DNA from: a virus
Virus record (IMG/VR): IMGVR_UViG_3300045988_146009
Span: 1 to 64,000 of that record
Length of the DNA: 64,000 nt
Reading direction: 5' to 3' (one strand)
Part shown: positions 11,921 to 55,972 of the stretch, piece by piece
How the letters are laid out: each line of letters starts with the position of its first letter
Position numbering within the stretch: position 1 is the first letter of the stretch
The notes under the pieces: model-generated
Database searches by the model: none
What the model was told of the DNA's origin: nothing
Seen by the model: only the letters and a program-made list of their open reading frames with translations
Program-made: the position numbers and the translations under genes

Positions 11921-11974
11921 TGTTACTGGACTATAGCAGGGGAGATTAAAATGTAAAGGGTCTCTTGTGTCATA

Positions 11975-12012
11975 CAAAATAAAACCCCAGGAACGCGCCA
12001 ACGTTCCTGGGG
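11975..12012 (-). terminator. Minus-strand intrinsic terminator (11-bp perfect stem) followed by TTTTATTTTGTATGACACAA
   Basis: CCCCAGGAACG-cgccaa-CGTTCCTGGGG. On the minus strand a T-run follows, then the recurring GTATGACACAA motif. Confidence 0.65.
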
Positions 12013-12043
12013 TAGGTGTATTCATGTATTAGCCGCAAAAATT

Positions 12044-12589
12044 TTAGTGTAACAATTCGTCAACTAGTTCGTAGCAATAGGGGGTATAAAGATGGTTGAA
12101 CTCAGGTGAGGTGTTGAGTAAGTGCAGAGGGAAAGGGTTGGGTGGAGCCGATGGATTCATAAACAACTTTACTCTCGGTAGCTCTTTCGTCCCTATGGTA
12201 TAGTAGAGATGGCCATCCCCGCCCTTAAAAACAAATTGATGTCCATCGCAAGTCGGGAGATTAATGAAGTTAGTGGACGAGTTTCCTTGACATACGAGAA
12301 CACCATTAGGGGAGTGCTTGAAGAAAGACATAGCACTTACCAAATCCATGGAAAACAAACTCATAATATGGGGAATATCATTCGTTTCCATTTTAGTAAG
12401 GTCAGACAAGGTGGGATTGATTTCTGTGATTCTAGGAGATGCACAGAGTTGTTTTATACTCATATACGGCATATCGTAGGTGTAATATGCTTCACTTATA
12501 TGAAACAACCTGTCCTCTTTTTCAAACACAATCATTCCCGACTCGCCGTGGTCTAATCGGAAAGGTCCTTTTGGAAATTTAATTTTCAT
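12044..12589 (-). CDS. Hypothetical protein (181 aa)
   Basis: ORF with 4-nt start/stop coupling to its upstream neighbour. Confidence 0.6.
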   Translation of the reverse strand: MKIKFPKGPFRLDHGESGMIVFEKEDRLFHISEAYYTYDMPYMSIKQLCASPRITEINPTLSDLTKMETNDIPHIMSLFSMDLVSAMSFFKHSPNGVLVCQGNSSTNFINLPTCDGHQFVFKGGDGHLYYTIGTKELPRVKLFMNPSAPPNPFPLHLLNTSPEFNHLYTPYCYELVDELLH

Positions 12590-13038
12590 TTTTCGTAGAT
12601 AACAAGTAGATTAAGAGAGCCAAATGCAGAGGCTCTATCCCCTGGTTTCATTGCGAGGATGTCGGTATGGTATCCAGGGGGTAGATAAGGCGTATACTCC
12701 TTGATAGTTTTTAACATCTGGTAATCTTCTCCCTTCAATTTTACGAAGGTGTAGGGTGGGGAGAACACCTTTTGAATAGCTTTGGTCATAGGACCATTGA
12801 ACAATCCTCCTTCACAGAATCGAACCTTGGCATGCCTTACGTCGGGGACAACATAGAAATTCCCATAGCTGGCCCACGGAAGATGGGGGCTTCCCTCATA
12901 TTGTGATTTGAGCAGATGGAGAATGCGTTCAAGCCTTCCCTGGTCGGTGGCAAAATCTCTATTAAAGAGGTCGATAAGATAGATTACTTCATCAACATCC
13001 ATCCCGTCCCTTACATATGATTCAAGAAACTGTTTCAT
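12586..13038 (-). CDS. Hypothetical protein (150 aa)
   Basis: ORF, translationally coupled to its neighbours. Confidence 0.6.
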   Translation of the reverse strand: MKQFLESYVRDGMDVDEVIYLIDLFNRDFATDQGRLERILHLLKSQYEGSPHLPWASYGNFYVVPDVRHAKVRFCEGGLFNGPMTKAIQKVFSPPYTFVKLKGEDYQMLKTIKEYTPYLPPGYHTDILAMKPGDRASAFGSLNLLVIYEK

Positions 13039-13529
13039 GATACTAAATGGAATAAGGTTTTTGTATGTTTGGCCACGGGGAAAGCATTTGCTTCATCATG
13101 CACGGGTTCGAGTACACCTACTTCATTTACAGTCAGGTCCCTCACTTCCCAAAGGAAGCCATCTCTACCCACGTAAACAAAACGATAACGAATATCCTTA
13201 TAGTCTGGTGGCTTAGGTACAGAGTTGGATGCTGGAGCATAGGTATCGTATGCAAAGATTCCTTTATTGGAATTAATGACATCATTCAAGGTCTTGTTAA
13301 AATCCCAGGAAGGTTTCTGTGTGTAGTATTCAATATTCCCGTGAAGGATAGACCAGTAGATATACCCTGTGGAAGTGTCATGTGGTTTCCCAGCTATGAC
13401 TTTAATTACATTCTTTTCCATATCATACTGATATACTACGCTGGGGTTGCCAGTGATATAGAAGGGGCCCAAACTTGCATACATCAATTGAAGGGCACGA
13501 GCTATTTTCCTAGGGTCTTCTCTAGACAT
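13035..13529 (-). CDS. Hypothetical protein (164 aa)
   Basis: ORF, translationally coupled to its neighbours. Confidence 0.6.
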   Translation of the reverse strand: MSREDPRKIARALQLMYASLGPFYITGNPSVVYQYDMEKNVIKVIAGKPHDTSTGYIYWSILHGNIEYYTQKPSWDFNKTLNDVINSNKGIFAYDTYAPASNSVPKPPDYKDIRYRFVYVGRDGFLWEVRDLTVNEVGVLEPVHDEANAFPVAKHTKTLFHLVS

Positions 13530-14040
13530 TGTGGCTGGAATAAATTTGAGTTGAAGCGGGCGAAGCGTTCGTATCGTCCTCCATCAGTTTGATTTTATTT
13601 ACTAGAGCGGTGAGGTCACGTCGTACATTTCGGAATTCCTGGCTGATATTAATCGTGTCACTCTCCATATCGAGATACATGGCGTGAACCATGCGAATAA
13701 TAATCAGGTCCTCCGCTCGCTTGTCAATAGAAGGGGAAGCCATTGAGCGGAGGAACCGAGCCATGTTCATCATGAACTTTGAATTGCTCTTGATTCCCTG
13801 CCAGTGGTTCATGAAATCGTTCAGGTAGAATAGGGCCTTGCTCACATCTTCCCTACGCTTACGTTGTCCACCCTTGAGTCCACTCCGCCAGAGATACTTG
13901 ATGCAGTTGCCCATATCAAAGGGAAGGTAACGGGTAAGCTCAATACATTCCATGCCCGAGGGGTGGGAAGTGTAGTGGCTGGGATGGTTAACGATAGACT
14001 GGTTGTCAAGGATAGATTCGATTACGTCTTTTTGATTCAT
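13522..14040 (-). CDS. Phage DUF3310-like protein (VNHPSHYT...ECIE...GNCIKYLWR motifs) with a C-terminal extension
   Basis: N-terminal motifs IVNHPSHYTSHPSGMECIELTRYLPFDMGNCIKYLWRSGLKGG match the conserved phage HPSHY family, as recalled from memory. Confidence 0.6.
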   Translation of the reverse strand: MNQKDVIESILDNQSIVNHPSHYTSHPSGMECIELTRYLPFDMGNCIKYLWRSGLKGGQRKRREDVSKALFYLNDFMNHWQGIKSNSKFMMNMARFLRSMASPSIDKRAEDLIIIRMVHAMYLDMESDTINISQEFRNVRRDLTALVNKIKLMEDDTNASPASTQIYSSHNV

Positions 14041-14071
14041 GTATTATTGTTTGGTTGATTAGGGGAAAGTA

Positions 14072-14278
14072 TTAGTCGTGAATTCCGAGGGCTTCTCCGA
14101 TTAGGCAGGAGTAGACCCCCATGAATAAAAGGAGACAGAAGGACATCTGATTATAGGGGAGGTCTCCCGAACAGGCATCCATTAATGTTAGGGATGTGCC
14201 CGTTAAGAGAAGGATATGTAGGGTTTTAGCCATTAACGTAGTTGTCAATATCTTCCTGGATAGCCCAGGCTTCCTCAT
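14072..14278 (-). CDS. Possible small hydrophobic protein (68 aa)
   Basis: ORF with a hydrophobic core. It overlaps the next gene by 53 nt. Confidence 0.25.
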   Translation of the reverse strand: MRKPGLSRKILTTTLMAKTLHILLLTGTSLTLMDACSGDLPYNQMSFCLLLFMGVYSCLIGEALGIHD

Positions 14279-14534
14279 AACAATGGATTTGAATCTTGCA
14301 AAGCTTCTTGAACGCGAAGAACGCTAAGACCAAATAGAGCGCATAGGCCGAGACGAACGTTACGTAAGGGATGAAGTTCTTAGGGGTCATAACGAGTATA
14401 AAAAACGCTACGATGAAGACGGCAACATCCAGGAGAACCAGCATGGACATCCAGTCTCCAATTTTACGTGCTCTCATTTCGTGTTGTTCCTTGAGCTTTA
14501 CTTTGTTGTCAATGATTGATTGGTTGGTTGTCAT
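14226..14534 (-). CDS. Small integral membrane protein (two predicted TM helices)
   Basis: Hydrophobic stretches MSMLVLLDVAVFIVAFFILVM and YVTFVSAYALYLVLAFFAF. Confidence 0.55.
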   Translation of the reverse strand: MTTNQSIIDNKVKLKEQHEMRARKIGDWMSMLVLLDVAVFIVAFFILVMTPKNFIPYVTFVSAYALYLVLAFFAFKKLCKIQIHCYEEAWAIQEDIDNYVNG

Positions 14535-14589
14535 TTCGAGGTAACTTTATCAGATGGATTTAATATTGCAAGACTTTTCTTTGTCAATT

Positions 14590-14847
14590 TTATAACTTAC
14601 TAAGATTTAATTGGAAGGATAATATTCCCAGGCGAGGGAGAAATAGTCTCACCCCATTGCACCTATCTAAAATAGGATTGAGCAGATGAATCTTTGTGAG
14701 GGCCTTATTAATTGAAAGGGTTGTTATTGACCACCCTATTCTATACATGGCTTCATCAATTTTTTCAACGTGGTCTGGCTGAGGGAATCCTATTTCCGTT
14801 AATGAGTTGGTAATCTTTTTTGTTGCTTTCTCTTTATCGGTATTCAT
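14590..14847 (-). CDS. Hypothetical protein (85 aa)
   Basis: ORF only. Confidence 0.4.
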   Translation of the reverse strand: MNTDKEKATKKITNSLTEIGFPQPDHVEKIDEAMYRIGWSITTLSINKALTKIHLLNPILDRCNGVRLFLPRLGILSFQLNLSKL

Positions 14848-14870
14848 AGAACCTCTATTCTACCACAGTT

Positions 14871-15230
14871 CTAATCATCATTCAATTCTTTTGTTATGAT
14901 GTCAATGATTGTTTTGCAGTCAGACAATAGTGCTTTCTTTTCATCAGCCATTTCCTTGGGGACCTGCGTACCCCGGACCTTGGCTTCGAGACTAGTAACC
15001 CTGTCGAGTATGGAACGAAGGGATTTGATTGCCGCAGGAGTGTCCAGGTTGGCCTTCCACATTTGCTCAGTCTCTGCTATCTTAATGACATAGATGAACA
15101 GGTCAGACCGGAGGGTGTAGAAATACCGGGCTTGGTTGGCTTGGGATATTACTTCTTCAAGATGGTCCGCATGAAGAGGGCCGGAAAGAAGAACGGCTAT
15201 AGCTGAGATTAGTAGGGTTGGTTTTTTCAT
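14871..15230 (-). CDS. Secreted/periplasmic protein with an N-terminal signal peptide
   Basis: MKKPTLLISAIAVLLSGPLHA, then a helical, charged body. Confidence 0.55.
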   Translation of the reverse strand: MKKPTLLISAIAVLLSGPLHADHLEEVISQANQARYFYTLRSDLFIYVIKIAETEQMWKANLDTPAAIKSLRSILDRVTSLEAKVRGTQVPKEMADEKKALLSDCKTIIDIITKELNDD

Positions 15231-15679
15231 TTTCGTAGTACTTTTAAAATGGTTAGTTCGTGGGAGTCAAAGTATGAGGTATTTACGTGGGAACATATTT
15301 CTCCATCAGTGATTTCAGTCCATGCCAACTCATAACCGCGGGCCTTGTCGAGAGCTTCTTCCATTGCTTCTTTGTCTTCCCCAAACTCACTGGGTTTATC
15401 TATATACTCCTTTGGGTTCCGTATTATCTCAAATGCAGTCCATAAGGAATTAGTGATGGTAAAATAACGAAGTTCCTGGTCGAAATCCATCTTTCCAAAT
15501 CCGCTATAGAGAGCAACTACGTAGTTTCCTGGAAGTCCCGCGGCTCTGGCCAGCAGGAAAGTAATCTTCGGTTCGCCAGGAATAGGGGTCTCTTCTACTT
15601 CCTGCTCCTGGCCGGGCTTAAACTGAATGTCCAGTTCAATCATCTTTGAGCAGTGGGGACACGGTATTTGATTTGTCAT
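15227..15679 (-). CDS. Hypothetical protein (150 aa), N-terminal CPHC zinc knuckle
   Basis: ORF with 4-nt coupling to flanking genes. Confidence 0.55.
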   Translation of the reverse strand: MTNQIPCPHCSKMIELDIQFKPGQEQEVEETPIPGEPKITFLLARAAGLPGNYVVALYSGFGKMDFDQELRYFTITNSLWTAFEIIRNPKEYIDKPSEFGEDKEAMEEALDKARGYELAWTEITDGEICSHVNTSYFDSHELTILKVLRK

Positions 15680-16074
15680 TGTGCTTCCTCCTTTTGTTTG
15701 AGTTCTTCCAGGAGAACCTCCTCATTGCCCACCTGTATATTTTGAGTGTTCAGGTTGATAATCTTCCTATGCCCATCACCTGTGTAATTTAGTTCAGCCA
15801 GATAGATGTCATGTTCGAATAATTGCCATGCTCTTTTCCTCTTTTCATAGGTTCCAAAGATGTCACTAGGCCAGTTGCCTACATTCTCTCGGTCTTCAAC
15901 AAGAGAGATAGCTTCCTCCAATGTATTCACAACCGTCAGGTATTCTAGTTTAATAATGCGGCCTACCTCTTTGTAGATGACTACACGGAAATAATTACCT
16001 GGGGTACGATAGATTGAAAATGTAAGTTGTGGGTTCATTTCTTGCTCAGTTCGTTGTATATCGTAGGTTTTCAT
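15676..16074 (-). CDS. Member of the tandem paralog family (TFxhYRTP..FRVhIYKE....EEAISLhEDRE..WPSD)
   Basis: Shares an N-terminal ~60-aa domain with the next two genes. ATGA start/stop overlaps link the array. Confidence 0.65.
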   Translation of the reverse strand: MKTYDIQRTEQEMNPQLTFSIYRTPGNYFRVVIYKEVGRIIKLEYLTVVNTLEEAISLVEDRENVGNWPSDIFGTYEKRKRAWQLFEHDIYLAELNYTGDGHRKIINLNTQNIQVGNEEVLLEELKQKEEAQ

Positions 16075-16421
16075 TGGGGTAATTCTTTCTCTATAAATTC
16101 AATAAGCTTGGTAAGTTCGTCAGGGTCTACTCTAGACTGATACAGGTTACATGCAATTTGGTTGTCCGTATTCACATAAAATTCCAGAAGCTCCACATCT
16201 CTGAGTAAACTTCTCCATATGTCTTCCCTTTCATCATCAGATTCATAGCCATCATCCAGCAGGCCCCGATAATCTTCCCTGTGTCTGGCTATCCATAATG
16301 CTTCATCCAAGGTATAGGTTGTTGCCATGTGCTTGACATAGAAGTTCCTACTATCTTCTTTGAAAATAAAAACCCGGAACCTATTGTTAGGGGTTCTATA
16401 AAGGGTGAATGTAACTTTCAT
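16071..16421 (-). CDS. Member of the tandem paralog family
   Basis: MKVTFTLYRTPNNRFRVFIFKE...DEALWIARHREDYRG aligns with the genes at 15676 and 16418. Confidence 0.65.
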   Translation of the reverse strand: MKVTFTLYRTPNNRFRVFIFKEDSRNFYVKHMATTYTLDEALWIARHREDYRGLLDDGYESDDEREDIWRSLLRDVELLEFYVNTDNQIACNLYQSRVDPDELTKLIEFIEKELPQ

Positions 16422-16756
16422 TTTAAAAAGGCATCTGCAATTTGTTTTCTTTGAGTGAGCTTAACCTTCCGATTAGTGAAGCCAAGTCTTTCCTTAAACG
16501 TATATACCGTGGAATAGGCCATCCTGTTTTTGCAGGGGTAATCAACAAGAAGCGTTCCCATTCTTGAAGCATTATCGAAGCCGTCACTCGGCCACTCCTT
16601 GTAAGTATCCCTGTCCTTAATGAGCGAGATGGCCTCCTCGAACGAATCCACATGCGGGACGAGATGGACACAGTTTCGATGGGTAGCCGTCTCTTCGAAC
16701 AAGAAAATACTATAGTACGAATCGTCCATTTCGTACAGTTCAAACGTTATGTGCAT
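16418..16756 (-). CDS. Member of the tandem paralog family
   Basis: MHITFELYEMDDSYYSIFLFEE...FEEAISLIKDRDTYKEWPSDGF aligns with its neighbours. Confidence 0.65.
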   Translation of the reverse strand: MHITFELYEMDDSYYSIFLFEETATHRNCVHLVPHVDSFEEAISLIKDRDTYKEWPSDGFDNASRMGTLLVDYPCKNRMAYSTVYTFKERLGFTNRKVKLTQRKQIADAFLK

Positions 16757-16760
16757 TAGA

Positions 16761-17120
16761 TTAAAGAAGGGGTTTAAGGTGTTTATAAATACTGGAATTA
16801 ACCGCGGCGGGATAAATATGTTTGACTATTTTGGTAAATCCCATTGCTGGTTTAACGCTAGTCTGAACAAGAAACTTTGTACTTCTCCTGGAGTATAACC
16901 TCTGCACATTAGCAGGATAGATTACATCGGGGAGGGTAGTGTTTACGTCAAAGGTAGAGTATAGATTCTTAATGTACGTAACGGCCTCTTCGGGCGAATA
17001 GGTCAGGAGGTATCCTACTATCCTCAAATAACGTAAACTCTCCTGTTGTACTATCACGATATAGCTCTCCTCAGCCGTCAAGAGCAAATCGTAGGTTAAG
17101 TATTTTTCTTCTTTGTTCAT
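16761..17120 (-). CDS. Possible distant member of the same paralog family (119 aa)
   Basis: LTYDLLLTAEESYIVIVQQES...SPEEAVTYIKNL is a weak match to the family pattern. Confidence 0.45.
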   Translation of the reverse strand: MNKEEKYLTYDLLLTAEESYIVIVQQESLRYLRIVGYLLTYSPEEAVTYIKNLYSTFDVNTTLPDVIYPANVQRLYSRRSTKFLVQTSVKPAMGFTKIVKHIYPAAVNSSIYKHLKPLL

Positions 17121-17167
17121 ATGTCTTACTATAGTATGTGATTTTTAAATGTCGAGATTATTTTTTG

Positions 17168-18079
17168 TCATTCTCTTTCAAGAAACTTAATCTCGTCATA
17201 TTTTGATTTGACTTTTTCAAGGAAGGATTTGAGCATAGCTTTTTCTAATTTGGTAGCCGTCCGTGGAAGTCTAAAATGATTCAGGGTTTGTCCTGTATGT
17301 CCTTTCTTTCCAGAGTTCTCGTTAACAAGAGATACCATAACAGGAATACGGGAGGTGTTGCTTACCCTAAAATAGGTGTGTTGGTCAGGTGTCCCGTTAA
17401 TATCTACAAAATTTATATCCTCAATCCTTTTCATAACTTCCTCAAATGTTTTGAAGATACTAATCTCGATGGCTTGAGAATGTGTAGTTGTTTCCCTGTA
17501 GAAAGTGAGAGCATACTTGTCTTCTAGCTGTAGATAATGCACGGAGAAGGTTACATGGATTCCATTATCCTTACGGTTTTCCCTCTCAATAAAAGCCTTG
17601 GTTTCATCATATAGTTCGGTTACTTTCAGCCATTCGTCAAGAGAAGGAGGGCCCTCCCGGTATTCACCTATGAATACTTCGAGTTGTCCTATGTCGCTAA
17701 GACAAAGCTCAACCAGAACATGAAGATTCTTAAAACGAAGGAATTCTTTGGTGGCTTCTATCTCGTCTCCGTATGTACCAAAAGGAATTTTGTTCCTGCT
17801 CTTGCAAAACTTAATGACATAATCCAATTTCCTATGACTCATAACCCCCAAAACTTTGAAGGAATACATGCCGGAAGAAGTCGTCTCTTCGGTTGCTACC
17901 CCCACATACTTTTTTGATTGAGGGTGATAGTACAGGCCAAAGGTAATGTGTTTCAGGTTCTTCATCTTAATTACAGGGGCATTCTTGAAACGATAGTGAG
18001 TTCCTTGGAAAGAATAACGGAGGCCCATGAGAGGCGCATATACTTTGCAAGTTCCGTCAGGAGGTTGAGGCTCAAACAA
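17168..18079 (-). CDS. Protein with two internal copies of the paralog domain (303 aa in the ORF track; the true start is probably internal, near 17965 or 18028)
   Basis: HITFGLYYHPQSKKYVGVATEE at aa ~44 and VTFSVHYLQLEDKYALTFYRE...FEEVMKRIED at aa ~190. The long form overlaps the 17971..18552 gene. Confidence 0.55.
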   Translation of the reverse strand: MFEPQPPDGTCKVYAPLMGLRYSFQGTHYRFKNAPVIKMKNLKHITFGLYYHPQSKKYVGVATEETTSSGMYSFKVLGVMSHRKLDYVIKFCKSRNKIPFGTYGDEIEATKEFLRFKNLHVLVELCLSDIGQLEVFIGEYREGPPSLDEWLKVTELYDETKAFIERENRKDNGIHVTFSVHYLQLEDKYALTFYRETTTHSQAIEISIFKTFEEVMKRIEDINFVDINGTPDQHTYFRVSNTSRIPVMVSLVNENSGKKGHTGQTLNHFRLPRTATKLEKAMLKSFLEKVKSKYDEIKFLERE

Positions 18080-18552
18080 GCGGTATTTCCAAGCCGTCTT
18101 TCGGGCTCTACTCCGTTCTTGTCCAGACTGATACTAAGGTGAAGAGCAAGGAAAGCCAGGGCCAGCTTTGGAAGATTCTCACATTCCTTTAGAAGGCTTG
18201 CCACCTGCTTTTTGTCCAACGTTGAATAAGAACTCCTGTTCTCCATGTCAATACCATGGCCGTGAATCTTGGCAAGGTTTTTATTGTAGCAATGCAAGGC
18301 GCGGGTGAATGAAGAGTTGAATACATGGTTCAAGTCCTTCCGGTGTTCACTACAGAACTCAATGGGGTTCTCAACCCGGCACAAAGTAATAGCATCCTGA
18401 ATCAGAAATGCCTTAGAAGTTGCGGGAACCATAAGGCCAAACAATACATTTTCAGGCGTTGTTTTTTCAGTATAGGCCCGTTCAATAAGAGTCTTGCTGG
18501 TTCCTTCTTCGGTAAAGTTGAATTCGTTTTTGGAAATATTATCGTTCATCAT
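17971..18552 (-). CDS. Hypothetical protein (193 aa)
   Basis: ORF only. Confidence 0.55.
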   Translation of the reverse strand: MMNDNISKNEFNFTEEGTSKTLIERAYTEKTTPENVLFGLMVPATSKAFLIQDAITLCRVENPIEFCSEHRKDLNHVFNSSFTRALHCYNKNLAKIHGHGIDMENRSSYSTLDKKQVASLLKECENLPKLALAFLALHLSISLDKNGVEPERRLGNTACLSLNLLTELAKYMRLSWASVILSKELTIVSRMPL

Positions 18553-18711
18553 TTTTATATAGGTTATTAAGTAGGTTAATGTTGCTTTTAGGATTCTGTA
18601 GTTGCAGGATGGATTTTCTAAAAAATAGAATGAGGGCTAGGCTAGCTGGAATCAATACCGCCAGAATGGACATGAATGCTATTAACAGTAGAACCAAGAA
18701 AAGAATCTTCA

Positions 18712-19290
18712 TCATAGAGTTATCTTGCTTGTGTCAAGTTTGTTCTTCAAATAATCCAGTTCACGGGGGGTTAACTTGTTAAATTGGAACACCTTAATTC
18801 TTTGTTCGTCAAGCATAAGAGGCTCTTTATCATTAACAATAAGCCTTCTCTCCTTGTTGAGGGGTTTCCGGGTTATGGTGTTGATTTGTGAAAGAGTCCG
18901 CATAGCCACCCCGAAAGATTGCGCTTGAAAATGCCTGATTATTTTGTAAGTTGTACTATTATAAATCTGGACATACAATTTAGAGTCAGGCAAGCGGTGA
19001 ATGCTGAAACTCTTTTCCGGAGACATAGGCGTAATTTGGTAGTCAATAATTAGGGAATCCCCTTCACGGACTACAAAGCCGTCAGTCAAATTCTCCAGCA
19101 TTAAGTGCGCCATGGAGATAATGCAAGGTACTGGATTGGCAAACCACACTTTCATTTTGTAATGGCAATTATATTCAGTCTTCATCTGCGTGCAACTAGG
19201 ACCATATACCCTCACATCCTTACTACTGAAATAACAGAGGGTTAGAAGTTGAGACTGCCATGCACGAAGGCAGTTCATTTTATTGGTCAT
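18712..19290 (-). CDS. Hypothetical protein (192 aa)
   Basis: ORF only. Confidence 0.55.
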   Translation of the reverse strand: MTNKMNCLRAWQSQLLTLCYFSSKDVRVYGPSCTQMKTEYNCHYKMKVWFANPVPCIISMAHLMLENLTDGFVVREGDSLIIDYQITPMSPEKSFSIHRLPDSKLYVQIYNSTTYKIIRHFQAQSFGVAMRTLSQINTITRKPLNKERRLIVNDKEPLMLDEQRIKVFQFNKLTPRELDYLKNKLDTSKITL

Positions 19291-19573
19291 AATTTTTATT
19301 GAGTAGGTTATAAAGTTCTGTCCAGGTTTTTACTTCGTTGATAAGTTCCTTTTTGAAGAAGGCAACCCTTGCATAGGTTGGAGTGGCGATTAAGACCGCC
19401 ATGCGGTGAGGTGAATGAAAAAGCCGTCTCTGAAATGTGGGGAAGAGTTCTTCCCTGTTATTGTGATAAAGCTCCACATAGACCACGGGAAAGGCATTGG
19501 AGATTTGTTTTTCTCTGCTCTCCTTCTTCCGGAACCCTATGCTTTCAAGCTCTAAAATGTAGCCATCAATCAT
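19280..19573 (-). CDS. Hypothetical protein (97 aa)
   Basis: ORF with 4-nt coupling to the 19570..20247 gene. Confidence 0.45.
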   Translation of the reverse strand: MIDGYILELESIGFRKKESREKQISNAFPVVYVELYHNNREELFPTFQRRLFHSPHRMAVLIATPTYARVAFFKKELINEVKTWTELYNLLNKNYDQ

Positions 19574-20247: not shown

Positions 20248-20279
20248 TTCTTTTTGTCTTTCTATTTTTGTTTGTAGTT

Positions 20280-20972: not shown

Positions 20973-21065
20973 TTTCTTTTGTCTTTCTGTTTGTTGTGCC
21001 GGACGTTTTGGCCTCCGGCTCGCCTTACATGAACAGTTATACCATAGGAGCAGGGAAAAACAAGA

Positions 21066-21905
21066 CTAATCTTTTTTGTCTTGTGTCATACACCAATTAA
21101 ACGCCGCTTTACCTTGTTCAGAAATGGCCCATGGACTAAAAGAACGGTGGACAATACGGGGGCGGGTAACCACTTCTGCTAGAATACATCCATCTTCTTC
21201 CATGCTTTTATTACAATTGCATGGCATAGGGGTTCCCTTGCATTCTCCTCCCCTGTTTTTACGAATATGGCTCTCATAATCCATTGTTAGTAGCAATTCC
21301 TTTAACTCTTTCATGGCCTTATAATTATGGATAGGGTAAGCCATTCGCAAAGAGGTAGAGCTAAAATTCTCTGACTCTAAATAGATTGTGAGATAAAACT
21401 CCTTATTCTCCGTGTTTTCCGTAACGTGTGCAGTATACACGGCTTCCTCACCCTCCAAAATGTTCACAACGTCAGCCTCATACTCAATATATTGAGTTTC
21501 AGGGAGTTCTTCCGTTTTTGCAGGTTGTTTCGGAGCGTCCTTAATGGGCGTAGCGTACACATCAACCGTTGCACAGGGGAGGCCAAAACAGGGATATTGA
21601 TTAAAAGAATCCTCCGTTCCCTCAATTTCGACAATTACCTTCCATTCAGCGCGGAAATCGTCAAGTTCAGCGCGGTCTTCCTCGCTAAGTTCGCCTTCAT
21701 CATCTCCATACCCCATTAAATAAGGGAATGCCCATTGAGGAACGCCCTCAACCCTTTCGTAACTGTCTGACGTTTCATCCGTTTCAGATAAGATAATGTA
21801 CGTACTTCCGCAATGGGGGCATAGTCCGTTTAGAGGCGTAACGCTTCGGTTATCGCATTCCATGCAGTCATATTTTTCGTTTTCGTCGATAATAACAGTG
21901 CTCAT
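21066..21905 (-). CDS. Hypothetical protein with an N-terminal zinc ribbon (CMEC...CPHC), 279 aa
   Basis: ORF. The conserved 5' leader repeat lies upstream at 21906..21975. Confidence 0.6.
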   Translation of the reverse strand: MSTVIIDENEKYDCMECDNRSVTPLNGLCPHCGSTYIILSETDETSDSYERVEGVPQWAFPYLMGYGDDEGELSEEDRAELDDFRAEWKVIVEIEGTEDSFNQYPCFGLPCATVDVYATPIKDAPKQPAKTEELPETQYIEYEADVVNILEGEEAVYTAHVTENTENKEFYLTIYLESENFSSTSLRMAYPIHNYKAMKELKELLLTMDYESHIRKNRGGECKGTPMPCNCNKSMEEDGCILAEVVTRPRIVHRSFSPWAISEQGKAAFNWCMTQDKKD

Positions 21906-22029
21906 TTTTATGTTTTCTATTTTAGTTTGTTGGTTGGTTGCGGGGTTGTGTTCCCCTTACGCAATCCTTTATATTATATTAGAGGGGAAACGCAAGGGAA
22001 ATGTTCATGCCTTGTGTCATACTTAACTG

Positions 22030-22332
22030 TTAAGGCTTTACGAGGTATTCTTTATAAATCTTCAACGCTTCTCCATGCGTTCTTGGTGCTTCATTCCCAT
22101 CTATGGCTCCCCACATGCTTAATATTTCAAAGTTCGTTTCCGTCCTTTTCATGGACAAAACGGCATAAATGTTATACTTTAGTTGTCCATCTTTCCGGAA
22201 AGCCTTGTCTTTAGGTATGTCATTGTCTATAGCTAATGGGCCGTTAAACGGTTGCTTGAAAAACTTAAATTCCGTAACTTCCTCATTTGCATAGGGGTAC
22301 AAATCTTTCGTCCAATAATATACTTTTTTCAT
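22030..22332 (-). CDS. Hypothetical protein (100 aa)
   Basis: ORF. The perfect palindrome GTTCCACGTGGAAC lies 10 nt upstream of the start. Confidence 0.5.
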   Translation of the reverse strand: MKKVYYWTKDLYPYANEEVTEFKFFKQPFNGPLAIDNDIPKDKAFRKDGQLKYNIYAVLSMKRTETNFEILSMWGAIDGNEAPRTHGEALKIYKEYLVKP

Positions 22333-22376
22333 TTTAGGATTGTTCCACGTGGAACATTTTAGTTATTGATTTGTGA

Positions 22377-23115: not shown

Positions 23116-23120
23116 GTTTT

Positions 23121-23537: not shown

Positions 23538-23542
23538 AAATG

Positions 23543-23743: not shown

Positions 23744-23855
23744 TTTTCTATTTTAGTTTTAGGCGGTTGCCTCGTTACGTGTTTCTTTATAACATTTTTG
23801 AGCAGGTAAACAAGGAAAATGTTCATGCCTTGTGTCATACTTCACTGTTAATCAG

Positions 23856-24191: not shown

Positions 24192-24218
24192 GGTTCTATG
24201 TCTTTCTAATTTAGGGGT

Positions 24219-24831: not shown

Positions 24832-24911
24832 TCTTTATAGCATCTTTGAGCAGGGGCACAAGCGTTTTATTTCACGTTTGTGTCATACAAAATTGTTCCA
24901 CGTGGAACTTT

Positions 24912-31730: not shown

Positions 31731-32007
31731 TAGTATGACAAAAAGGATGGAGATTGTTCTTGAAATAATGACTACGCGGTGGTAGGGTCTGTTCATGGAC
31801 ACAGAACAAGATGAATGGAAATCCTGCACGACTTGCGCTTATGCCATCTGGCCAGGAGCTTCCTACCCCTGCTCGGTTTGCAACTATAAGGACATGTGGG
31901 TTCCACAGGAAGGGGACGGGGACGAAGAAGATTCCAAACATGGGGGTGAAGCCGAGTACGAATAAAAGCTAAATATTATACAGTAAAAACTTACACCTGT
32001 CAAGCCA

Positions 32008-32241: not shown

Positions 32242-32242
32242 A

Positions 32243-41268: not shown

Positions 41269-41270
41269 TC

Positions 41271-43094: not shown

Positions 43095-43096
43095 TC

Positions 43097-43756: not shown

Positions 43757-43764
43757 CAGGAGAA

Positions 43765-43796
43765 GCCCCGTCTAGTAGGCGGGGTTTCTTTTTTGT
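43765..43796 (+). terminator. Intrinsic terminator followed by TTTTTTGTATGACACAACAC
   Basis: GCCCCG...CGGGGT stem, then TTTCTTTTTTG. The GTATGACAC motif overlaps the ATG of the next gene. Confidence 0.55.
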
Positions 43797-44696
43797 ATGA
43801 CACAACACAATATTGATAGAATCTATTTCTATGGTATAACTCAACAAGACATGGCCATTTCAAAAGCTGAACAACGAAAGAAAGAACGGATAGCCAAGAG
43901 CAAGGCCCGAAGGAACCGTGGCATAAAAAAACATGATGTAGACAAGAGTGACCTTCGACCCCGGAATTTTCAGGAGCTTATGTACAAGTGGCTCCCCGCT
44001 ACCCTTGAATTTAATTACAGGGGAGAAGACTTTGATGTATATGATTACTACGCCGCAGGAACAAGCGGAGGTGGACAGAACCCCCTTGCTATCGGTTCTA
44101 CAAATGGGGCATTAGAAATCATTGGGTACACCAAGTTCCCAAGTACTCCCTATGCAGTAAGATGTGTATGTGGTCGAGTAATGAAGCTGAATATTAAGGA
44201 CTTCAACGAACACCCCCACTGTGGGTGTTTTTTCCGTGCTGTCCGAACAGCCTACCTGATTCGCACCCGCATTGAAGCAGTTCGCTCCTGGCTGAATAAT
44301 GTGGGAGACTGGTTACTTGACCTTGAAGTTATCGAGGATTATATGGTAGACTTCATTGATAAGTCCCGAGGTCTGGACCAAAGGAAAACCCCCTATGTGA
44401 GAAAGTCCCCCGCTGAACCATTCATCAATTTACTTCACGGGAAAACTGACCCAATGCCGCAGGAATTTCTTGATTTCTTCCTGCTCATTTCTACGACGAA
44501 AAGCTATAAAAAGCTCCTTACAGAACTCGTTGATAAGAACAGCGAATACCCTTTGTGGGAAGCTATTCCCCTCAGCGACATGTCCGAGTATGAGAGGGTG
44601 AGCAATTCCCTCCCGGAGTTTGATGCGGCAACCTTCATTAATCTTATCCACCATCTCAATGAAACAGAAGCTTCCAAGTTTACGGAGGGTAGTTAA
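43797..44696 (+). CDS. Hypothetical protein (299 aa)
   Basis: ORF only. Confidence 0.6.
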   Translation: MTQHNIDRIYFYGITQQDMAISKAEQRKKERIAKSKARRNRGIKKHDVDKSDLRPRNFQELMYKWLPATLEFNYRGEDFDVYDYYAAGTSGGGQNPLAIGSTNGALEIIGYTKFPSTPYAVRCVCGRVMKLNIKDFNEHPHCGCFFRAVRTAYLIRTRIEAVRSWLNNVGDWLLDLEVIEDYMVDFIDKSRGLDQRKTPYVRKSPAEPFINLLHGKTDPMPQEFLDFFLLISTTKSYKKLLTELVDKNSEYPLWEAIPLSDMSEYERVSNSLPEFDAATFINLIHHLNETEASKFTEGS

Positions 44697-46145: not shown

Positions 46146-46154
46146 TAAACCCTG

Positions 46155-49933: not shown

Positions 49934-49964
49934 AATAGCTTGACATAATCAACCTAAAAAGTGT

Positions 49965-50012
49965 AAAGAAGGTACATCAATTAACGATGTACCTTCTTTT
50001 GCTTTTCATCGT
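49965..50012 (+). terminator. Strong intrinsic terminator (14-bp perfect stem AAAGAAGGTACATC, 7-nt loop, T-run)
   Basis: Read directly, between the scaffold-like and capsid genes. Confidence 0.75.
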
Positions 50013-51746: not shown

Positions 51747-52355
51747 ATGTCAAATCAAGTTGTACCCCCTTATCCCAGTGAAGTAACAACCGTTACTCTC
51801 GCTCAAGCTCAGGCTGGAATTCAGATTGCGGTTAATCAACCTGTTTCTATTACCGGGTTGACCGCCAATACCCGGTATCGAGTCACCTGTATTACCGACA
51901 AACACAGTACTATCAAAGTAGCTACCGATGGGTCCACTGTAGCCGATGGACAGATTAGCGGCATTCCCGCTTACATTTCTCCCGCCGCAACTACGGCCAC
52001 CATTACTGTAACCACGTTCGCTACTACGGTCGCCACGTTAACGGTGGAAGCCGCTCCTATTGCCGCCCCAACAGACGTAACCCTCCCCTCCCTTCTTACC
52101 CCCAATGTAAGGTATAAAGTCACTGGTGCTCCAGGTGCCAACGTTCCTTTCATACTTTCTTTGAAGGCACCCTCCGTGGTTTCCCTTTTTGTGTCATACC
52201 TTTCCTCTGATGGGAGTGTGGTATTCAGGGATGTTGTCATTGGTATGAATGAGTTACGAAATTTAACGAACCTCGGCAAGGGGGACATCCTCCTCTATGT
52301 TGATGGAGACAGTCAGGCCGAAGTGAATTTTTCCTTTACACCTGCCGCTCCGTAA
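51747..52355 (+). CDS. Virion protein with Ig-like/beta-sandwich repeat modules (202 aa)
   Basis: Thr/Val/Ala-rich beta-strand patterns (TATITVTTFATTVATLTVEAAP). Repeats are shared with the next gene. Confidence 0.55.
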   Translation: MSNQVVPPYPSEVTTVTLAQAQAGIQIAVNQPVSITGLTANTRYRVTCITDKHSTIKVATDGSTVADGQISGIPAYISPAATTATITVTTFATTVATLTVEAAPIAAPTDVTLPSLLTPNVRYKVTGAPGANVPFILSLKAPSVVSLFVSYLSSDGSVVFRDVVIGMNELRNLTNLGKGDILLYVDGDSQAEVNFSFTPAAP

Positions 52356-55459: not shown

Positions 55460-55474
55460 CATTTCACAACTACT

Positions 55475-55852
55475 ATGTTCATTCATATCCAATACCATCT
55501 GAACGAAGAAAGAAAATTTCTCCCCATGGAAGGGACTATTTCTTTCGTAGGTCCGAAATCTGATAACTGGGCCTATTCCTCCTCCATGAGTCTCAAGGAC
55601 CTCCCTGCCAAACAACTCGCAGTTTATCAGGGAATTACAACCCTCATTCAAAGTGGAAGTCAACCTTGGGTAGCCTCTCAGATTCATGCTTTCCCCACCG
55701 CTACAGCGACTGGGGCTAAAGCTGTTAGCCTACATATTGAGGCCATCCATGATACCACGAATGCTATCCGTGTTTTCACACCCAAGGAAGACCCCAATCT
55801 CCTGGTGGAAGGAGACGAAGCATATTCGTTCTTTGATTATTTTACTAAGTAA
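55475..55852 (+). CDS. Hypothetical protein (125 aa)
   Basis: ORF only. Confidence 0.5.
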   Translation: MFIHIQYHLNEERKFLPMEGTISFVGPKSDNWAYSSSMSLKDLPAKQLAVYQGITTLIQSGSQPWVASQIHAFPTATATGAKAVSLHIEAIHDTTNAIRVFTPKEDPNLLVEGDEAYSFFDYFTK

Positions 55853-55863
55853 ACATTATGAAA

Positions 55864-55893
55864 AAAGGCAAAGGCAAAGGCAAAGGAAAGGGT
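55864..55893 (+). repeat. Hexanucleotide tandem repeat (AAAGGC)n inside a 17-codon micro-ORF (55858..55911, MKKGKGKGKGKGKGCGK)
   Basis: Read directly. Confidence 0.6.
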
Positions 55894-55931
55894 AAGGGTT
55901 GCGGTAAGTAATCCGACCTTATAAAAATTCA

Positions 55932-55972
55932 GCAACCCCGCTTTGTATGACACAGAGCGGGGTTGCTTTTTA
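55932..55972 (+). terminator. Intrinsic terminator whose loop carries TTGTATGACACAG
   Basis: GCAACCCCGCT...AGCGGGGTTGC, an 11-bp stem, then TTTTTAT. Confidence 0.6.

What the first reader, a model, noticed from the sequence alone, without database searches (positions are those of the whole stretch)
11967..55953. Recurrent intergenic motif TTGTATGACACAA, often right after a terminator hairpin. Candidate phage-specific promoter.
GTATGACAC, in the direction of transcription, occurs upstream of at least seven genes on both strands. The plus-strand copies are at 43795 (overlapping the ATG of the next gene) and 55945 (inside the terminator loop before thyX). The minus-strand copies, written as GTGTCATAC, are at 11967, 21083, 22014, 23832 and 24880. 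A partial copy, GTATGACAAAAAG, is at 31733. Four copies follow a stem-loop terminator directly. The minus-block copies are preceded by a second motif GAGCAGGG about 33-37 nt away (21044, 23795, 24848, and also 25978, 26905, 27549). Neither motif looks like a sigma70 hexamer pair, so the phage may use its own RNAP or sigma-like factor, which would be encoded outside this window.
Basis: seen in the sequence. Interest (0 to 1): 0.7.

Follow-up and report, generated by a model that had tools for sequence, protein, structure and literature searches.

The report
Upstream promoter element of a gut phage
GTATGACAC is a real, conserved signal placed at a fixed distance upstream of ordinary bacterial-type promoter hexamers in an uncultured ~69 kb human-gut phage, so it most likely marks a separately regulated promoter class and is not a promoter for a phage-made RNA polymerase.

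Summary
GTATGACAC occurs 8 times against 0.31 expected. Six copies lie in the 11.5% of the window that is non-coding (P = 5e-5). Seven point towards the next gene.

The interpretation needs revising. Every gene-oriented copy, plus the variant at 31733 and a new candidate at 59614, obeys one grammar: GTATGACA(C/A), then 9 or 18-19 nt, then TTGnnn, then 16-17 nt, then TAnnnT, often preceded by TGn. There are 9 such sites against 0.045 expected in shuffles. The motif is therefore an upstream element, centred near -48 or -57 (one helical turn apart), of sigma70-type extended -10 promoters with weak -35 boxes. It is not a free-standing promoter.

In two related phage clades the motif, the TTG and the -10 stay invariant at the same spacing while the spacer varies. 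The complete genome, including the 4.8 kb outside the window, shows no recognisable RNA polymerase or sigma factor.

The best reading is a binding site for an unidentified activator that defines a second promoter class, alongside about 10 motif-less TTGACA promoters.

GAGCAGGG (CCCTGCTC) is a separate, genome-wide, strand-polar octamer and not a promoter element.

The interest is moderate. This is a new variant of a familiar kind of phage regulation, and it is untested experimentally.

The parts
24834..24890 (-). Class-2 promoter. Motif TTGTATGACACAA at 24878-24890, then an 18-nt gap, -35 TTGTGC at 24856-24861, a 16-nt spacer containing CCCTGCTC, and TGc-TATAAA at 24834-24839. A long A-rich leader runs to the ATG at 24765.
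   Evidence: The ortholog in L135:7516 has the same spacing.
23786..23842 (-). Class-2 promoter. Motif 9-mer at 23832-23840, then an 18-nt gap, -35 TTGTTT at 23808-23813, a 16-nt spacer, and TGt-TATAAA at 23786-23791. The ATG is at 23743. It is a paralog of the 22014 cassette.
21968..22024 (-). Class-2 promoter. Motif at 22014-22022, then an 18-nt gap, -35 TTGCGT at 21990-21995, a 16-nt spacer, and TATAAA at 21968-21973. The ATG is at 21905 (DUF6926/DUF7129 protein).
   Evidence: Orthologs at L135:9879 and L136:1493.
21036..21093 (-). Class-2 promoter. Motif at 21083-21091, inside the last codons of gene 21066-21905, then a 19-nt gap, -35 TTGTTT at 21058-21063, a 16-nt spacer, and TGg-TATAAC at 21036-21041. 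The ATG is at 20972 (GNAT acetyltransferase).
   Evidence: The ortholog at L135:10830 keeps GTATGACAC and the 41-nt distance although the following bases differ.
11930..11977 (-). Class-2 promoter, short phasing. Motif TTGTATGACACAA at 11965-11977, then a 9-nt gap, -35 TTTACA at 11952-11957, a 16-nt spacer, TGc-TATAGT at 11930-11935, then 9 nt to the likely start ATG at 11920.
   Evidence: Identical in L136:12208.
43793..43840 (+). Class-2 promoter, short phasing. Motif TTGTATGACACAA at 43793-43805, then a 9-nt gap, -35 TTGATA at 43813-43818, a 16-nt spacer, TGg-TATAAC at 43835-43840, then 10 nt to the likely start ATG at 43851.
   Evidence: Strain variants differ only in the 9-nt gap.
55943..55990 (+). 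Class-2 promoter of thyX, short phasing. Motif at 55945-55953 in the top of terminator hairpin 55931-55967, then a 9-nt gap, -35 TTGCTT at 55963-55968, a 16-nt spacer, TATCCT at 55985-55990, then 6 nt to the ATG at 55997.
31733..31788 (+). Class-2 promoter with variant motif GTATGACAA at 31733-31741, then an 18-nt gap, -35 TTGAAA at 31760-31765, a 17-nt spacer, TAGGGT at 31783-31788, then 6 nt to the ATG at 31795. It starts the first of several small CxxC (zinc-ribbon-like) ORFs.
   Evidence: Conserved in L135 (-800) with compensatory changes in the preceding hairpin.
59614..59659 (+). Candidate ninth site. Variant TTATGACAC at 59614-59622, then a 9-nt gap, TTGTAA, a 16-nt spacer, TACAGT at 59654-59659, then 7 nt to an in-frame ATG at 59667.
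   Evidence: grammar scan. Not examined in relatives.
52191..52199 (-). Exact GTATGACAC copy, antisense inside gene 51747-52355. There is no TTG or TAnnnT at the grammar positions. It is probably not a promoter.
11984..12013 (-). Terminator hairpin with a T-run ending directly at the motif.
   Evidence: z = -5.0
43758..43792 (+). Terminator hairpin with a T-run ending directly at the motif.
   Evidence: z = -5.5
55931..55967 (+). Terminator hairpin whose apex is the motif itself. Its 3' arm and T-run carry the -35 box.
   Evidence: z = -8.3

Best explanation
GTATGACA(C/A) is an upstream promoter element. It often extends to TTGTATGACACAAG.

Anatomy (shown). It sits at one of two helically phased positions, centred about -57 or -48. 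Those positions are inferred by taking the TSS as about 7 nt after the -10 hexamer. The core promoters downstream are sigma70-type: -35 TTGnnn, a 16-17-nt spacer, -10 TAnnnT, and usually a TGn extension. These motif-bearing promoters form a second class beside about 10 motif-less promoters whose -35 is close to consensus TTGAC(A/T).

Mechanism (inferred). A sequence-specific DNA-binding protein, probably phage-encoded and not yet identified, binds the motif on one face of the helix. It helps the host RNA polymerase holoenzyme use promoters with poor -35 boxes. That would place a set of genes under common, probably temporal, control: small early-block genes, the GNAT gene, thyX, the gene after terminase, and the zinc-ribbon ORF cluster.

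Because the element starts a transcription unit, it often lies right after, or even inside, the terminator of the preceding unit.

What is shown: the motif is real, it is oriented, it has fixed spacing to the hexamers, it is conserved in relatives, and no phage RNAP is detectable. What is inferred: that a protein binds it, that the effect is activation, and that the host polymerase reads these promoters.
For: (1) Enrichment and placement. There are 8 exact copies against 0.31 expected. Six of the 8 are in the 11.5% non-coding DNA, P = 5e-5. Seven of the 8 are co-oriented with the downstream gene.

(2) Grammar. The gaps from the motif to the -35 box are 18, 18, 18, 19, 18 and 9, 9, 9. The spacer is 16 nt, and 17 nt once. 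TGn precedes the -10 in 5 sites (and the hand count recorded in note). Nine sites satisfy the grammar against 0.045 in 200 shuffles, with a maximum of 1.

(3) The two spacing classes differ by 9-10 bp, one helical turn. That is expected for a protein that must face RNA polymerase.

(4) Conservation. In L135-type and L038-type relatives the 9-mer, the CTTG of the -35 and the TA.A of the -10 are invariant columns, while the 16-nt spacer varies. L135:10830 keeps the 9-mer and the 41-nt distance even though the flanking bases differ. Strain variants at the 43795 site differ only in the gap between motif and -35.

(5) Independent copies. The copies at 11967, 43795 and 55945 share nothing with the early-block cassettes beyond the 13-mer and the grammar, so the signal is not just recent duplication.

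(6) Weaker -35 boxes. Motif-bearing promoters have TTGTGC, TTGTTT, TTGCGT and TTGCTT (3 of 6 matches) or TTGATA, TTTACA and TTGAAA (5 of 6). Motif-less promoters mostly have TTGACA or TTGACT. At the site orthologous to 43795, relatives that lack the motif have consensus TTGACA-N16-TATAGT or TATTTT.

(7) Sigma70-type hexamers are the family's normal promoters. TTGAC[AT] occurs upstream of 11 of 76 genes against about 4 expected. The Bacteroidota-type box TAnnTTTG occurs upstream of 0 of 76.
Against: - No transcription start sites are known, so the -57 and -48 coordinates rest on the hexamer assignment.
- No DNA-binding protein, sigma factor or activator was identified among the phage proteins.
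- The structure model of the one lineage-restricted early protein was too poor to use, mean pLDDT 50.
- Extended -10 promoters can work without an activator, so the motif could be inhibitory or serve something else.
- Four of the window's copies (21083, 22014, 23832, 24880) belong to partly paralogous promoter plus leader cassettes, which reduces the number of independent observations.
- The host is unknown. Genes lack Shine-Dalgarno sequences, which points to a Bacteroidota-like host. The known primary sigma of that phylum does not use TTGACA/TATAAT (my own knowledge). So which polymerase or sigma reads these hexamers is not settled.
Confidence: 0.55

Rival explanations
1. Operator for a repressor or shut-off factor. 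A protein binds the motif but turns these promoters down, for example to switch off early or middle genes later in infection.
For: The anatomy is the same as for the activator model. Extended -10 promoters (TGn in 5 sites) may not need activation. The phasing is equally compatible with a repressor that contacts the polymerase or loops DNA.
Against: The motif lies entirely upstream of the -35 box and does not overlap the core promoter, which is an inefficient place for simple steric repression. Motif-bearing promoters have the weaker -35 boxes, the usual signature of activator dependence.
Confidence: 0.13
2. A UP-element-like contact. The host polymerase itself, through the alpha C-terminal domain or a host factor, recognises the motif without any phage protein.
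For: The position, -44 to -61, overlaps the range of UP elements. No phage regulator was found.
Against: The sequence is not A/T-rich like known UP elements (my own knowledge). It is sharply defined, with 9 invariant bases, and only a subset of the phage's promoters carry it. The more distant relatives, which have the same gene order, have none within 10 kb of the terminase gene.
Confidence: 0.09
3. The motif is itself the promoter of a phage-encoded RNA polymerase or a sigma-like factor.
For: The motif is lineage-specific and highly conserved. The phage has a 3284-aa ORF of unknown function, and giant virion proteins of N4, crAss-like phages and P23-45 hide RNA polymerases (abstracts listed). 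The host may be one whose own sigma does not read TTGACA/TATAAT.
Against: The motif is always tied at fixed distance to sigma70-type hexamers that are themselves conserved. The whole 68.8 kb genome was surveyed. There is no Pfam RNAP or sigma hit. No ORF over 219 aa has the DxDxD metal-binding motif of two-barrel polymerases. The giant ORF has no sequence match to any PDB chain at E <= 1 and carries an HExxH peptidase-like motif instead. The two spacing classes 9-10 bp apart are not expected for a promoter that sets its own start site.
Confidence: 0.08
4. An RNA-level or structural element: a processing site, a terminator accessory, or a hairpin (ACAAG...CTTGT) formed in RNA or single-stranded DNA, as in N4 early promoters.
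For: Five copies adjoin or sit within strong hairpins. In the early-block copies ACAAG pairs with the CTTGT of the -35 region.
Against: The inverted repeat has no covariation support: 79 of 500 shuffles reach the observed score, and only one pair shows a double change. L135:10830 lacks CAAG yet keeps the motif and spacing. The copies at 11967, 43795 and 55945 have no such repeat. The copies at 22014, 23832 and 21083 have no preceding terminator. The constant feature is the distance to the -35 and -10 boxes, which is a DNA-level promoter property.
Confidence: 0.06
5. Passive repeat. The copies are remnants of duplicated promoter cassettes that shuffle small genes, comparable to the PeSL cassettes of T4-type phages, with no function of the 9-mer itself.
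For: The cassettes at 22014, 23832, 24880 and 21083 share up to about 120 nt, including the leader GCGTAAGGGGAACACAACC...AACTAAAATAGAAAA. The window has one cassette (23832) that L135 lacks.
Against: Three copies (11967, 43795, 55945) share only the 13-mer and the grammar. The 9-mer is invariant between clades whose flanks have diverged completely.
Confidence: 0.06

Closest known systems
Activator-dependent late promoters of phage P2/P4 (Ogr/Delta; from my own knowledge, not tested by a tool)
   Same: These are sigma70-type promoters with poor -35 boxes and a short conserved element centred near -55, upstream of the core promoter. A small phage zinc-finger protein that contacts host RNA polymerase reads that element. 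This phage also encodes a cluster of small CxxC proteins (31795-33630), and one motif copy starts that cluster.
   Different: The P2 element is a dyad, TGT-N12-ACA. Here the invariant part is the asymmetric 9-mer GTATGACAC, and a TTGT...ACAA dyad appears only in some copies. It occurs at two phasings, about -48 and -57. No Ogr/Delta family hit appeared in Pfam scans of the small proteins.
T4 middle promoters (MotA box plus AsiA sigma appropriation; from my own knowledge)
   Same: Both are a second promoter class that keeps a good sigma70 -10 or extended -10 box, has a non-consensus -35, and is defined by a phage-specific box read by a phage protein.
   Different: The MotA box is centred at -30 and replaces the -35. 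Here TTG of the -35 is retained and invariant, and the motif lies 9-19 bp further upstream. No MotA or AsiA domain was found.
Class I CRP-type activation and phage Mu Mor/C-dependent promoters (from my own knowledge)
   Same: An activator site upstream of the core promoter works from positions that differ by whole helical turns.
   Different: Those sites are dyads bound by dimers, and CRP class I sites centre at -61.5, -71.5 and so on. This motif is asymmetric and is inferred to centre at about -48 or -57.
PeSL promoter/stem-loop cassettes of T4-type phages (from my own knowledge)
   Same: Repeated promoter units, often next to a stem-loop, punctuate a block of small early genes and differ in number between close relatives.
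   Different: PeSLs are ordinary early sigma70 promoters with no extra upstream specificity box. Here the box also occurs at unrelated promoters in the replication and structural gene regions.
Promoters of single-subunit phage RNA polymerases (T7, SP6) and N4 virion RNAP hairpin promoters
   Same: A phage-specific conserved sequence recurs in front of genes. SP6's promoter even contains TGACAC.
   Different: Those promoters include the start site and need a phage polymerase gene. Here no such gene is detectable, the motif is 40-60 bp from the inferred start, and the hairpin is not supported.

Membership tests
sigma70-type (extended -10) bacterial promoter | A -10 hexamer TAnnnT with a -35 TTGnnn 16-18 bp upstream | tested here: met
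   All 8 gene-oriented copies, plus the 59614 candidate, have TTGnnn (TTTACA once), a 16-17-nt spacer, and TAnnn(T/A/C). There are 9 sites against 0.045 in shuffles.
sigma70-type (extended -10) bacterial promoter | TG at -15/-14, one base upstream of the -10 hexamer | tested here: met
   TGc, TGt and TGg precede the hexamer at 24880, 23832, 21083, 11967 and 43795. TGc is invariant in the L038-type orthologs. It is absent at 22014, 31733 and 55945.
sigma70-type (extended -10) bacterial promoter | Hexamers conserved and spacer free to vary among orthologs | tested here: met
   In alignment A2, CTTG and TA.A are invariant, while the 16-nt spacer differs among L038-type sequences.
sigma70-type (extended -10) bacterial promoter | Transcription starts about 7 nt downstream of the -10 hexamer | not testable with these tools
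   No transcript data are available. It is consistent with the ATG lying 6-10 nt after the hexamer at 4 sites (leaderless layout).
Activator-dependent phage promoter (P2 Ogr type) | TGT-N12-ACA dyad centred about -55 | tested here: not met
   The invariant element is the asymmetric GTATGACAC. Only a TTGT-N5-ACAA partial dyad is seen, and only in some copies.
Activator-dependent phage promoter (P2 Ogr type) | An Ogr/Delta zinc-finger activator gene | tested here: not met
   No such Pfam family appeared among the small ORFs scanned. Unrelated CxxC ORFs are present.
T4 middle promoter | MotA box (a/t)(a/t)(a/t)TGCTTtA centred at -30, replacing the -35 | tested here: not met
   The motif lies 9-19 bp upstream of a retained TTG -35 box.
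T4 middle promoter | MotA and AsiA proteins | tested here: not met
   No hits in Pfam or PHROG scans of early proteins.
Single-subunit (T7-like) RNAP promoter | A phage gene for a T7-like RNA polymerase | tested here: not met
   The complete genome was recovered. No RNAP family appeared in the scans of the large window ORFs or of the four ORFs outside the window (PHROGs; Pfam for the giant ORF and those four), and none appeared in the Pfam scans of 10 concatenates covering the early-block and small replication-module ORFs or of 10 further ORFs.
Single-subunit (T7-like) RNAP promoter | A conserved block of about 20 bp that spans the start site | tested here: inconclusive
   The invariant core is 9 bp, up to about 35 bp in one subclass. 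The start site is unknown.
N4 / crAss-like virion RNAP system | A giant virion protein with polymerase motifs (two-barrel DxDxD, or homology to N4 vRNAP) | tested here: not met
   The 3284-aa ORF has no D.D.D motif, no PDB sequence match at E <= 1, and no Pfam or PHROG family. A fold-level test was not done.
N4 / crAss-like virion RNAP system | A promoter hairpin of 5-7 bp stem and 3-nt loop | tested here: not met
   The candidate repeat has a 10-14-nt loop and no covariation support. It is absent from several copies.

The most novel reading that the evidence does not exclude
The phage may infect a host whose own primary sigma does not read TTGACA/TATAAT. The genes lack Shine-Dalgarno sequences and have A-rich leaders, as in Bacteroidota, yet none carries the Bacteroidota TAnnTTTG box. 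In that case the phage would bring its own promoter-specificity system. GTATGACAC would be the DNA address of a new, sequence-orphan factor: a sigma-like or sigma-appropriating protein, or a cryptic polymerase in the 3284-aa ORF. That factor would redirect transcription to phage promoters.
Probability: 0.12. Interest if true: 0.7.

Novelty: new variant of a known kind. Interest (0 to 1): 0.4.

Why it matters
The phage lineage is common in human-gut metagenomes. The exact protein looked up occurs on 19 contigs, 13 of them 50-200 kb. The lineage has no cultured relative.

A short, sharply defined box that splits its promoters into two classes gives three things. It gives a handle for predicting the infection programme from sequence alone. 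It gives a bait for finding the regulator, by DNA pull-down or EMSA with early proteins. It gives a compact regulated promoter part for whatever host this phage infects.

If the host turns out to be one whose sigma does not read these hexamers, the box would point to a new way of redirecting transcription.

As it stands, this is a familiar regulatory logic in a new sequence form. It is not a new principle.

Tried and rejected
- Phage identity. blastn and tblastn of the terminase region and of TerL against 50,697 phage records found nothing. PolA gives only about 24% identity hits.
- Rfam and tRNA scans found nothing.
- Hairpin hypothesis (ACAAG...CTTGT). The counts show no covariation, so it was dropped.
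- Bacteroidetes non-canonical LexA box. Recalled as a lead, then checked in PMC8565304. The published motifs are GGA-N5-TCC and CTAA-N5-TTAG, not this one.
- Literature search for the 9-mer returned only unrelated eukaryotic primer hits.
- Using ATGACA inside the motif as a -35 box. No -10 lies 16-18 nt downstream, except weakly at 11967 (hand reading).
- Host from a chimeric contig. L050 joins the phage to Lachnospiraceae genes. The phage's lack of Shine-Dalgarno sites makes that host unlikely, so this is probably a misassembly. This search used the only genome-contig scan.
- Fetching relatives through primase, PolA, ThyX or the giant ORF of the window failed. TerL, a relative's primase fragment and the DUF6926 protein alignment worked.
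- Structure of the DUF6926/DUF7129 early protein, the only early protein shared with the L038-type clade. Mean pLDDT was 50, so no fold search was made.
- Looking for a regulator with Pfam and PHROGs among about 60 small ORFs. Only DUF3310, GNAT, HNH, NUMOD4 and SprT-like were found. The GS linkers I used to pack ORFs produced spurious Serglycin hits.
- The generic sigma70 consensus scan is not enriched over shuffles (32 against 34.9, and 16 against 21.1). The promoter assignment rests on the fixed grammar and on conservation, not on that scan.

Full report
CONTEXT

The window is most of a phage genome of about 68.8 kb assembled repeatedly from human-gut metagenomes. Contigs of 68,820 and 68,874 bp carry the same genes, and the window's exact protein 62598-63401 is found on 19 contigs.

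No cultured relative exists. blastn of 40000-47900 and tblastn of the terminase against 50,697 phage records found nothing.

The gene layout has three blocks:
- A plus-strand block at 1-11,100, dominated by a 3284-aa ORF.
- A minus-strand block of about 35 small genes at 11,160-25,800.
- A repeat-rich non-coding region at about 25.9-28.3 kb, followed by a plus-strand block. That block holds a primase-helicase, PolA, a helicase, an exonuclease, the terminase at 41271-43094, probable portal, capsid and tail genes (assigned from ORF size and order only), and thyX at 55997.

Almost no gene has a Shine-Dalgarno sequence, and leaders are A-rich.

THE OBSERVATION

GTATGACAC occurs 8 times against 0.31 expected. 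The 13-mer TTGTATGACACAA has 13 matches at up to 2 mismatches against 1.55 expected.

One further exact copy, 52191 on the minus strand, was missed.

After correcting three start codons, 11.5% of the window is non-coding. Six of the 8 copies lie there, P = 5e-5. A seventh, at 21083, lies in the last codons of a gene. Seven point towards the downstream gene.

The adjoining hairpins are real and strong at four sites. The z-scores are -5.0, -5.5, -6.6 and -8.3. At thyX the motif forms the apex of the terminator hairpin.

Reading each copy in the direction of transcription gives the same order of elements (thyX, 31733 and 59614).

| Site | Motif | Gap to -35 | -35 | Spacer | -10 | Distance to ATG |
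|---|---|---|---|---|---|---|
| 24880 | GTATGACAC | 18 | TTGTGC | 16 | TGc-TATAAA | long leader |
| 23832 | GTATGACAC | 18 | TTGTTT | 16 | TGt-TATAAA | long leader |
| 22014 | GTATGACAC | 18 | TTGCGT | 16 | TATAAA | long leader |
| 21083 | GTATGACAC | 19 | TTGTTT | 16 | TGg-TATAAC | long leader |
| 31733 | GTATGACAA (variant) | 18 | TTGAAA | 17 | TAGGGT | 6 nt |
| 11967 | GTATGACAC | 9 | TTTACA | 16 | TGc-TATAGT | 9 nt |
| 43795 | GTATGACAC | 9 | TTGATA | 16 | TGg-TATAAC | 10 nt |
| 55945 | GTATGACAC | 9 | TTGCTT | 16 | TATCCT | 6 nt |

A grammar scan also finds a candidate ninth site at 59614: TTATGACAC, a 9-nt gap, TTGTAA, a 16-nt spacer, TACAGT, then 7 nt to an in-frame ATG.

Nine sites satisfy the grammar against 0.045 in 200 shuffles, with a maximum of 1. 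The antisense intragenic copy at 52191 does not fit and is probably a chance copy.

So the motif is not a promoter without hexamers. It is an element 9 or 18-19 bp upstream of a sigma70-type -35 box. The two spacings differ by one helical turn. Taking the start as about 7 nt after the -10 hexamer, the motif is centred near -48 or -57.

CONSERVATION IN RELATIVES

Thirty-six relatives were found through the terminase, at 59-76% identity and with the same gene order. None has the 9-mer within 10 kb of the terminase gene. At the site orthologous to 43795 they have a consensus promoter instead: TTGACA-N16-TATAGT, TATATT or TATTTT, followed 6-7 nt later by the ATG.

Early regions of closer relatives were then fetched.
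- L136 is about 91% identical in protein 21066-21905.
- L134 and L135 are about 56% identical in that protein.
- The 70-73 kb L038-type clade has 76% terminase identity. Protein 21066-21905 is the only early-block protein with a tblastn match in the early region fetched from that clade.

The motif is present in all three groups at the same spacing.

In a 13-sequence alignment the invariant columns are GTATGACAC, the CTTG of the -35, and AT..TA.A of the extended -10. The 16-nt spacer varies freely among the L038-type orthologs. That is the pattern expected of a functional promoter.

L135:10830, the ortholog of 21083, keeps the 9-mer and the 41-nt distance to TATAAC although the bases after the 9-mer are different.

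Strain variants at the 43795 site differ only within the 9-nt gap.

A variant, GTATGACAA, recurs behind hairpins or T-runs with the same grammar: window 31733, L135 -800, and L138 -8231 (19-nt gap, TTGAGA, 16-nt spacer, TATAGG).

One subclass shares a longer upstream block, ATAACTnnnTTAAnAGnnAAGTATGACACAAG.

IS THERE A HAIRPIN?

In the early-block copies the ACAAG at the end of the motif is complementary to the CTTGT that contains the -35 TTG. Counting pairs on the alignment gives no covariation support. Seventy-nine of 500 shuffles reach the observed score, and only one pair shows a double change. The repeat is absent from L135:10830 and from the three short-phasing sites. I treat it as two invariant blocks that happen to be complementary.

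IS THERE A PHAGE POLYMERASE OR SIGMA?

The 4.8 kb of genome outside the window encodes proteins of 162, 949, 223 and 454 aa with no informative Pfam hit.

The 3284-aa ORF has the following properties:
- No PHROG or Pfam family.
- No sequence match to any PDB chain at E <= 1. The PDB includes N4 and crAss-like virion polymerases, by my own knowledge of its contents.
- No D.D.D motif.
- An HExxH motif near residue 1544.

No ORF longer than 219 aa anywhere in the genome has D.D.D.

Pfam and PHROG scans of about 60 small ORFs found only DUF3310, GNAT, DUF6926/DUF7129, HNH, NUMOD4 and SprT-like domains.

A cryptic, sequence-orphan polymerase cannot be excluded, but nothing points to one.

TWO PROMOTER CLASSES

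About ten intergenic regions carry near-consensus TTGAC(A/T)-N16-18-TAnnnT without the motif. Examples lie upstream of genes starting at 57398, 61207, 45195, 28282, 14534, 40708 and 50144.
- TTGAC[AT] occurs upstream of 11 of 76 genes against about 4 expected.
- The Bacteroidota-type TAnnTTTG box occurs upstream of 0 of 76.

Motif-bearing promoters have poorer -35 boxes, four of them with only 3 of 6 matches. Most compensate with a TGn extension.

This split is the logic of activator-dependent promoter classes in P2, Mu and T4 (my own knowledge). The supporting evidence here is indirect:
- the motif lies upstream of the core promoter
- the two spacings differ by a helical turn
- at the site orthologous to 43795, relatives have a consensus -35 box in place of the motif

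MOST LIKELY MECHANISM

A sequence-specific protein binds GTATGACAC on one face of the DNA and helps the RNA polymerase holoenzyme use these promoters. That puts a scattered set of genes under common control.

The following are shown: the motif is real and oriented, its grammar is fixed, it is conserved, and no phage RNAP is detectable. The following are inferred: that a protein binds it, the sign of the effect, and the identity of the polymerase.

Confidence is about 0.55 for the activator version. It is about 0.75-0.8 for the broader statement that the motif is an upstream regulatory element of sigma70-type promoters.

Candidate factors are speculative:
- The lineage-restricted zinc-ribbon protein 21066-21905. 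It has only 12 homologs among 5.8 billion proteins. Its family was found only in clades that have the motif, and an alignment-based scan of viral contigs returned only L038-type contigs.
- The cluster of small CxxC ORFs at 31795-33630.
- The 62-aa basic ORF at 25601-25789.

The structure model of the first was unusable, mean pLDDT 50.

THE SECOND MOTIF, GAGCAGGG

It is truly over-represented, with 17 copies against 2.07 expected, but it is a different phenomenon.
- Written as CCCTGCTC, it lies in the spacer of several early-block promoters. Its distance to the -10 box ranges from an overlap (at 11967) to 8 nt.
- Twelve of the 17 copies are inside genes. Nine of those are on the sense strand, and eight of the nine are in the reading phase xCC-CTG-CTC.
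- The orientation flips at the divergent non-coding region near 28 kb.
- The closest relatives have 6-8 copies per 21 kb, all on the sense strand. The more distant clade has 0-2 per locus, on either strand.
- The copies are mostly not orthologous. Where both genomes encode Ala-Leu-Leu, only one of them uses the codons that spell the octamer: GCC CTG CTC against GCT CTC CTT, and GCC CTG CTC against GCC CTA TTG. So it is selected at the DNA or RNA level, in the manner of Chi or KOPS/SRS-type polar octamers (my own knowledge).

Its function is unexplained.

VERDICT

This is a new variant of a known kind of regulation. Interest is 0.4.

The main open point is which polymerase or sigma reads TTGACA/TATAAT-type promoters in a phage whose translation signals look Bacteroidota-like. 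If the host's own sigma cannot, the finding becomes considerably more interesting.

Noticed in passing
Whole window. Examples: 9622, 10732, 28481, 29636, 38105, 39109 and 58645 (CCCTGCTC on +); 21048, 24848, 25980, 26908 and 27551 (on -). Also L001, L002, L034 and L035.: CCCTGCTC is a strand-polar, over-represented octamer with 17 copies against 2 expected. It is mostly on the sense strand, and inside genes mostly in phase xCC-CTG-CTC. Its orientation flips near 28 kb. Close relatives carry 6-8 copies per 21 kb, all on one strand and mostly at non-orthologous sites created by synonymous codon choice. The distant clade has 0-2 per locus. It resembles Chi or KOPS/SRS-type oriented signals. Its function is unknown.
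   Followed up: partly
window 25,900-28,280; L038 5,400-8,400: This is a repeat-rich non-coding region between the divergent gene blocks. It contains a 9-nt-periodic array at 26249-26499, several 16-26-nt repeat families, and two exact copies of GTTTTACATTTTTGTAAAA. The relative has many TGTGGAAA/TTTCCACA (DnaA-box-like) repeats at the same place. Contigs of the distant clade end here. It is probably the replication origin and/or the genome terminus.
   Followed up: partly
window 40634-40707 and 49940-50010: Ahead of the gene before terminase (40708) and of the probable capsid gene (50144), a near-consensus promoter, TTGAC(T/A)-N16-18-T(G)TAAA, is followed immediately by a strong hairpin plus T-run. 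This is a promoter-then-terminator layout reminiscent of lambda PR'-tR'. It suggests that late genes may need antitermination.
   Followed up: no
window 507-10361: This 3284-aa ORF has no Pfam, PHROG or PDB sequence match. It has an HExxH (HELTH) motif near residue 1544 and no DxDxD motif. No homolog was retrieved from viral contigs by peptide patterns.
   Followed up: partly
window 22342-22355 and 24895-24908; also L134, L135 and L136: The perfect 14-bp palindrome GTTCCACGTGGAAC occurs twice against 0.01 expected. It recurs in relatives just upstream of motif-bearing promoters or gene starts. It could be a weak terminator or a second protein-binding site.
   Followed up: partly
Whole window and relatives. 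Examples: 33330-33375, 57363-57400, 61172-61209, and L004-L036 near position 12,500.: Many promoters put the -10 hexamer only 6-10 nt before the ATG, a leaderless-mRNA layout. Nearly all genes lack a Shine-Dalgarno sequence. No gene has the Bacteroidota TAnnTTTG box upstream. This combination leaves the host phylum unclear.
   Followed up: partly
L050 16,100-20,804: One 23.7 kb assembly joins the phage's tail-gene region to Lachnospiraceae-like genes (sugar transferase, HtrA, GlmS; best genome hits are Faecalicatena and Mediterraneibacter). It is probably a chimeric assembly and not an integration junction.
   Followed up: partly
window 31795-33630: Here sits a run of five small ORFs of 56-84 aa, each with paired CxxC motifs (zinc-ribbon-like). 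They lie just downstream of the primase, and the first is driven by a motif-variant promoter.
   Followed up: no
window 15227-19290; L038 1,100-3,900: This is an array of paralogous small early proteins sharing an N-terminal pattern such as (I/V)TF(S/T)(I/L)YRTP.N.FRV.I(F/Y)KE. The relative has an analogous array with a different repeated pattern, TYRVYED..G.LH.
   Followed up: no
window 24912-25604 and 36374-37114; L001 about 18,670-19,170: HNH/NUMOD4 homing-endonuclease-like genes sit at different places in different relatives. One lies directly upstream of the 24880 promoter, and in some relatives one lies next to the capsid gene. They are signs of mobile-element traffic.
   Followed up: no
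L138 8,778-9,488 compared with L147 14,714-15,424: A 236-aa gene is called on opposite strands in two L038-type relatives, next to a reverse-oriented GTATGACAA promoter. This may be an inverted segment.
   Followed up: no
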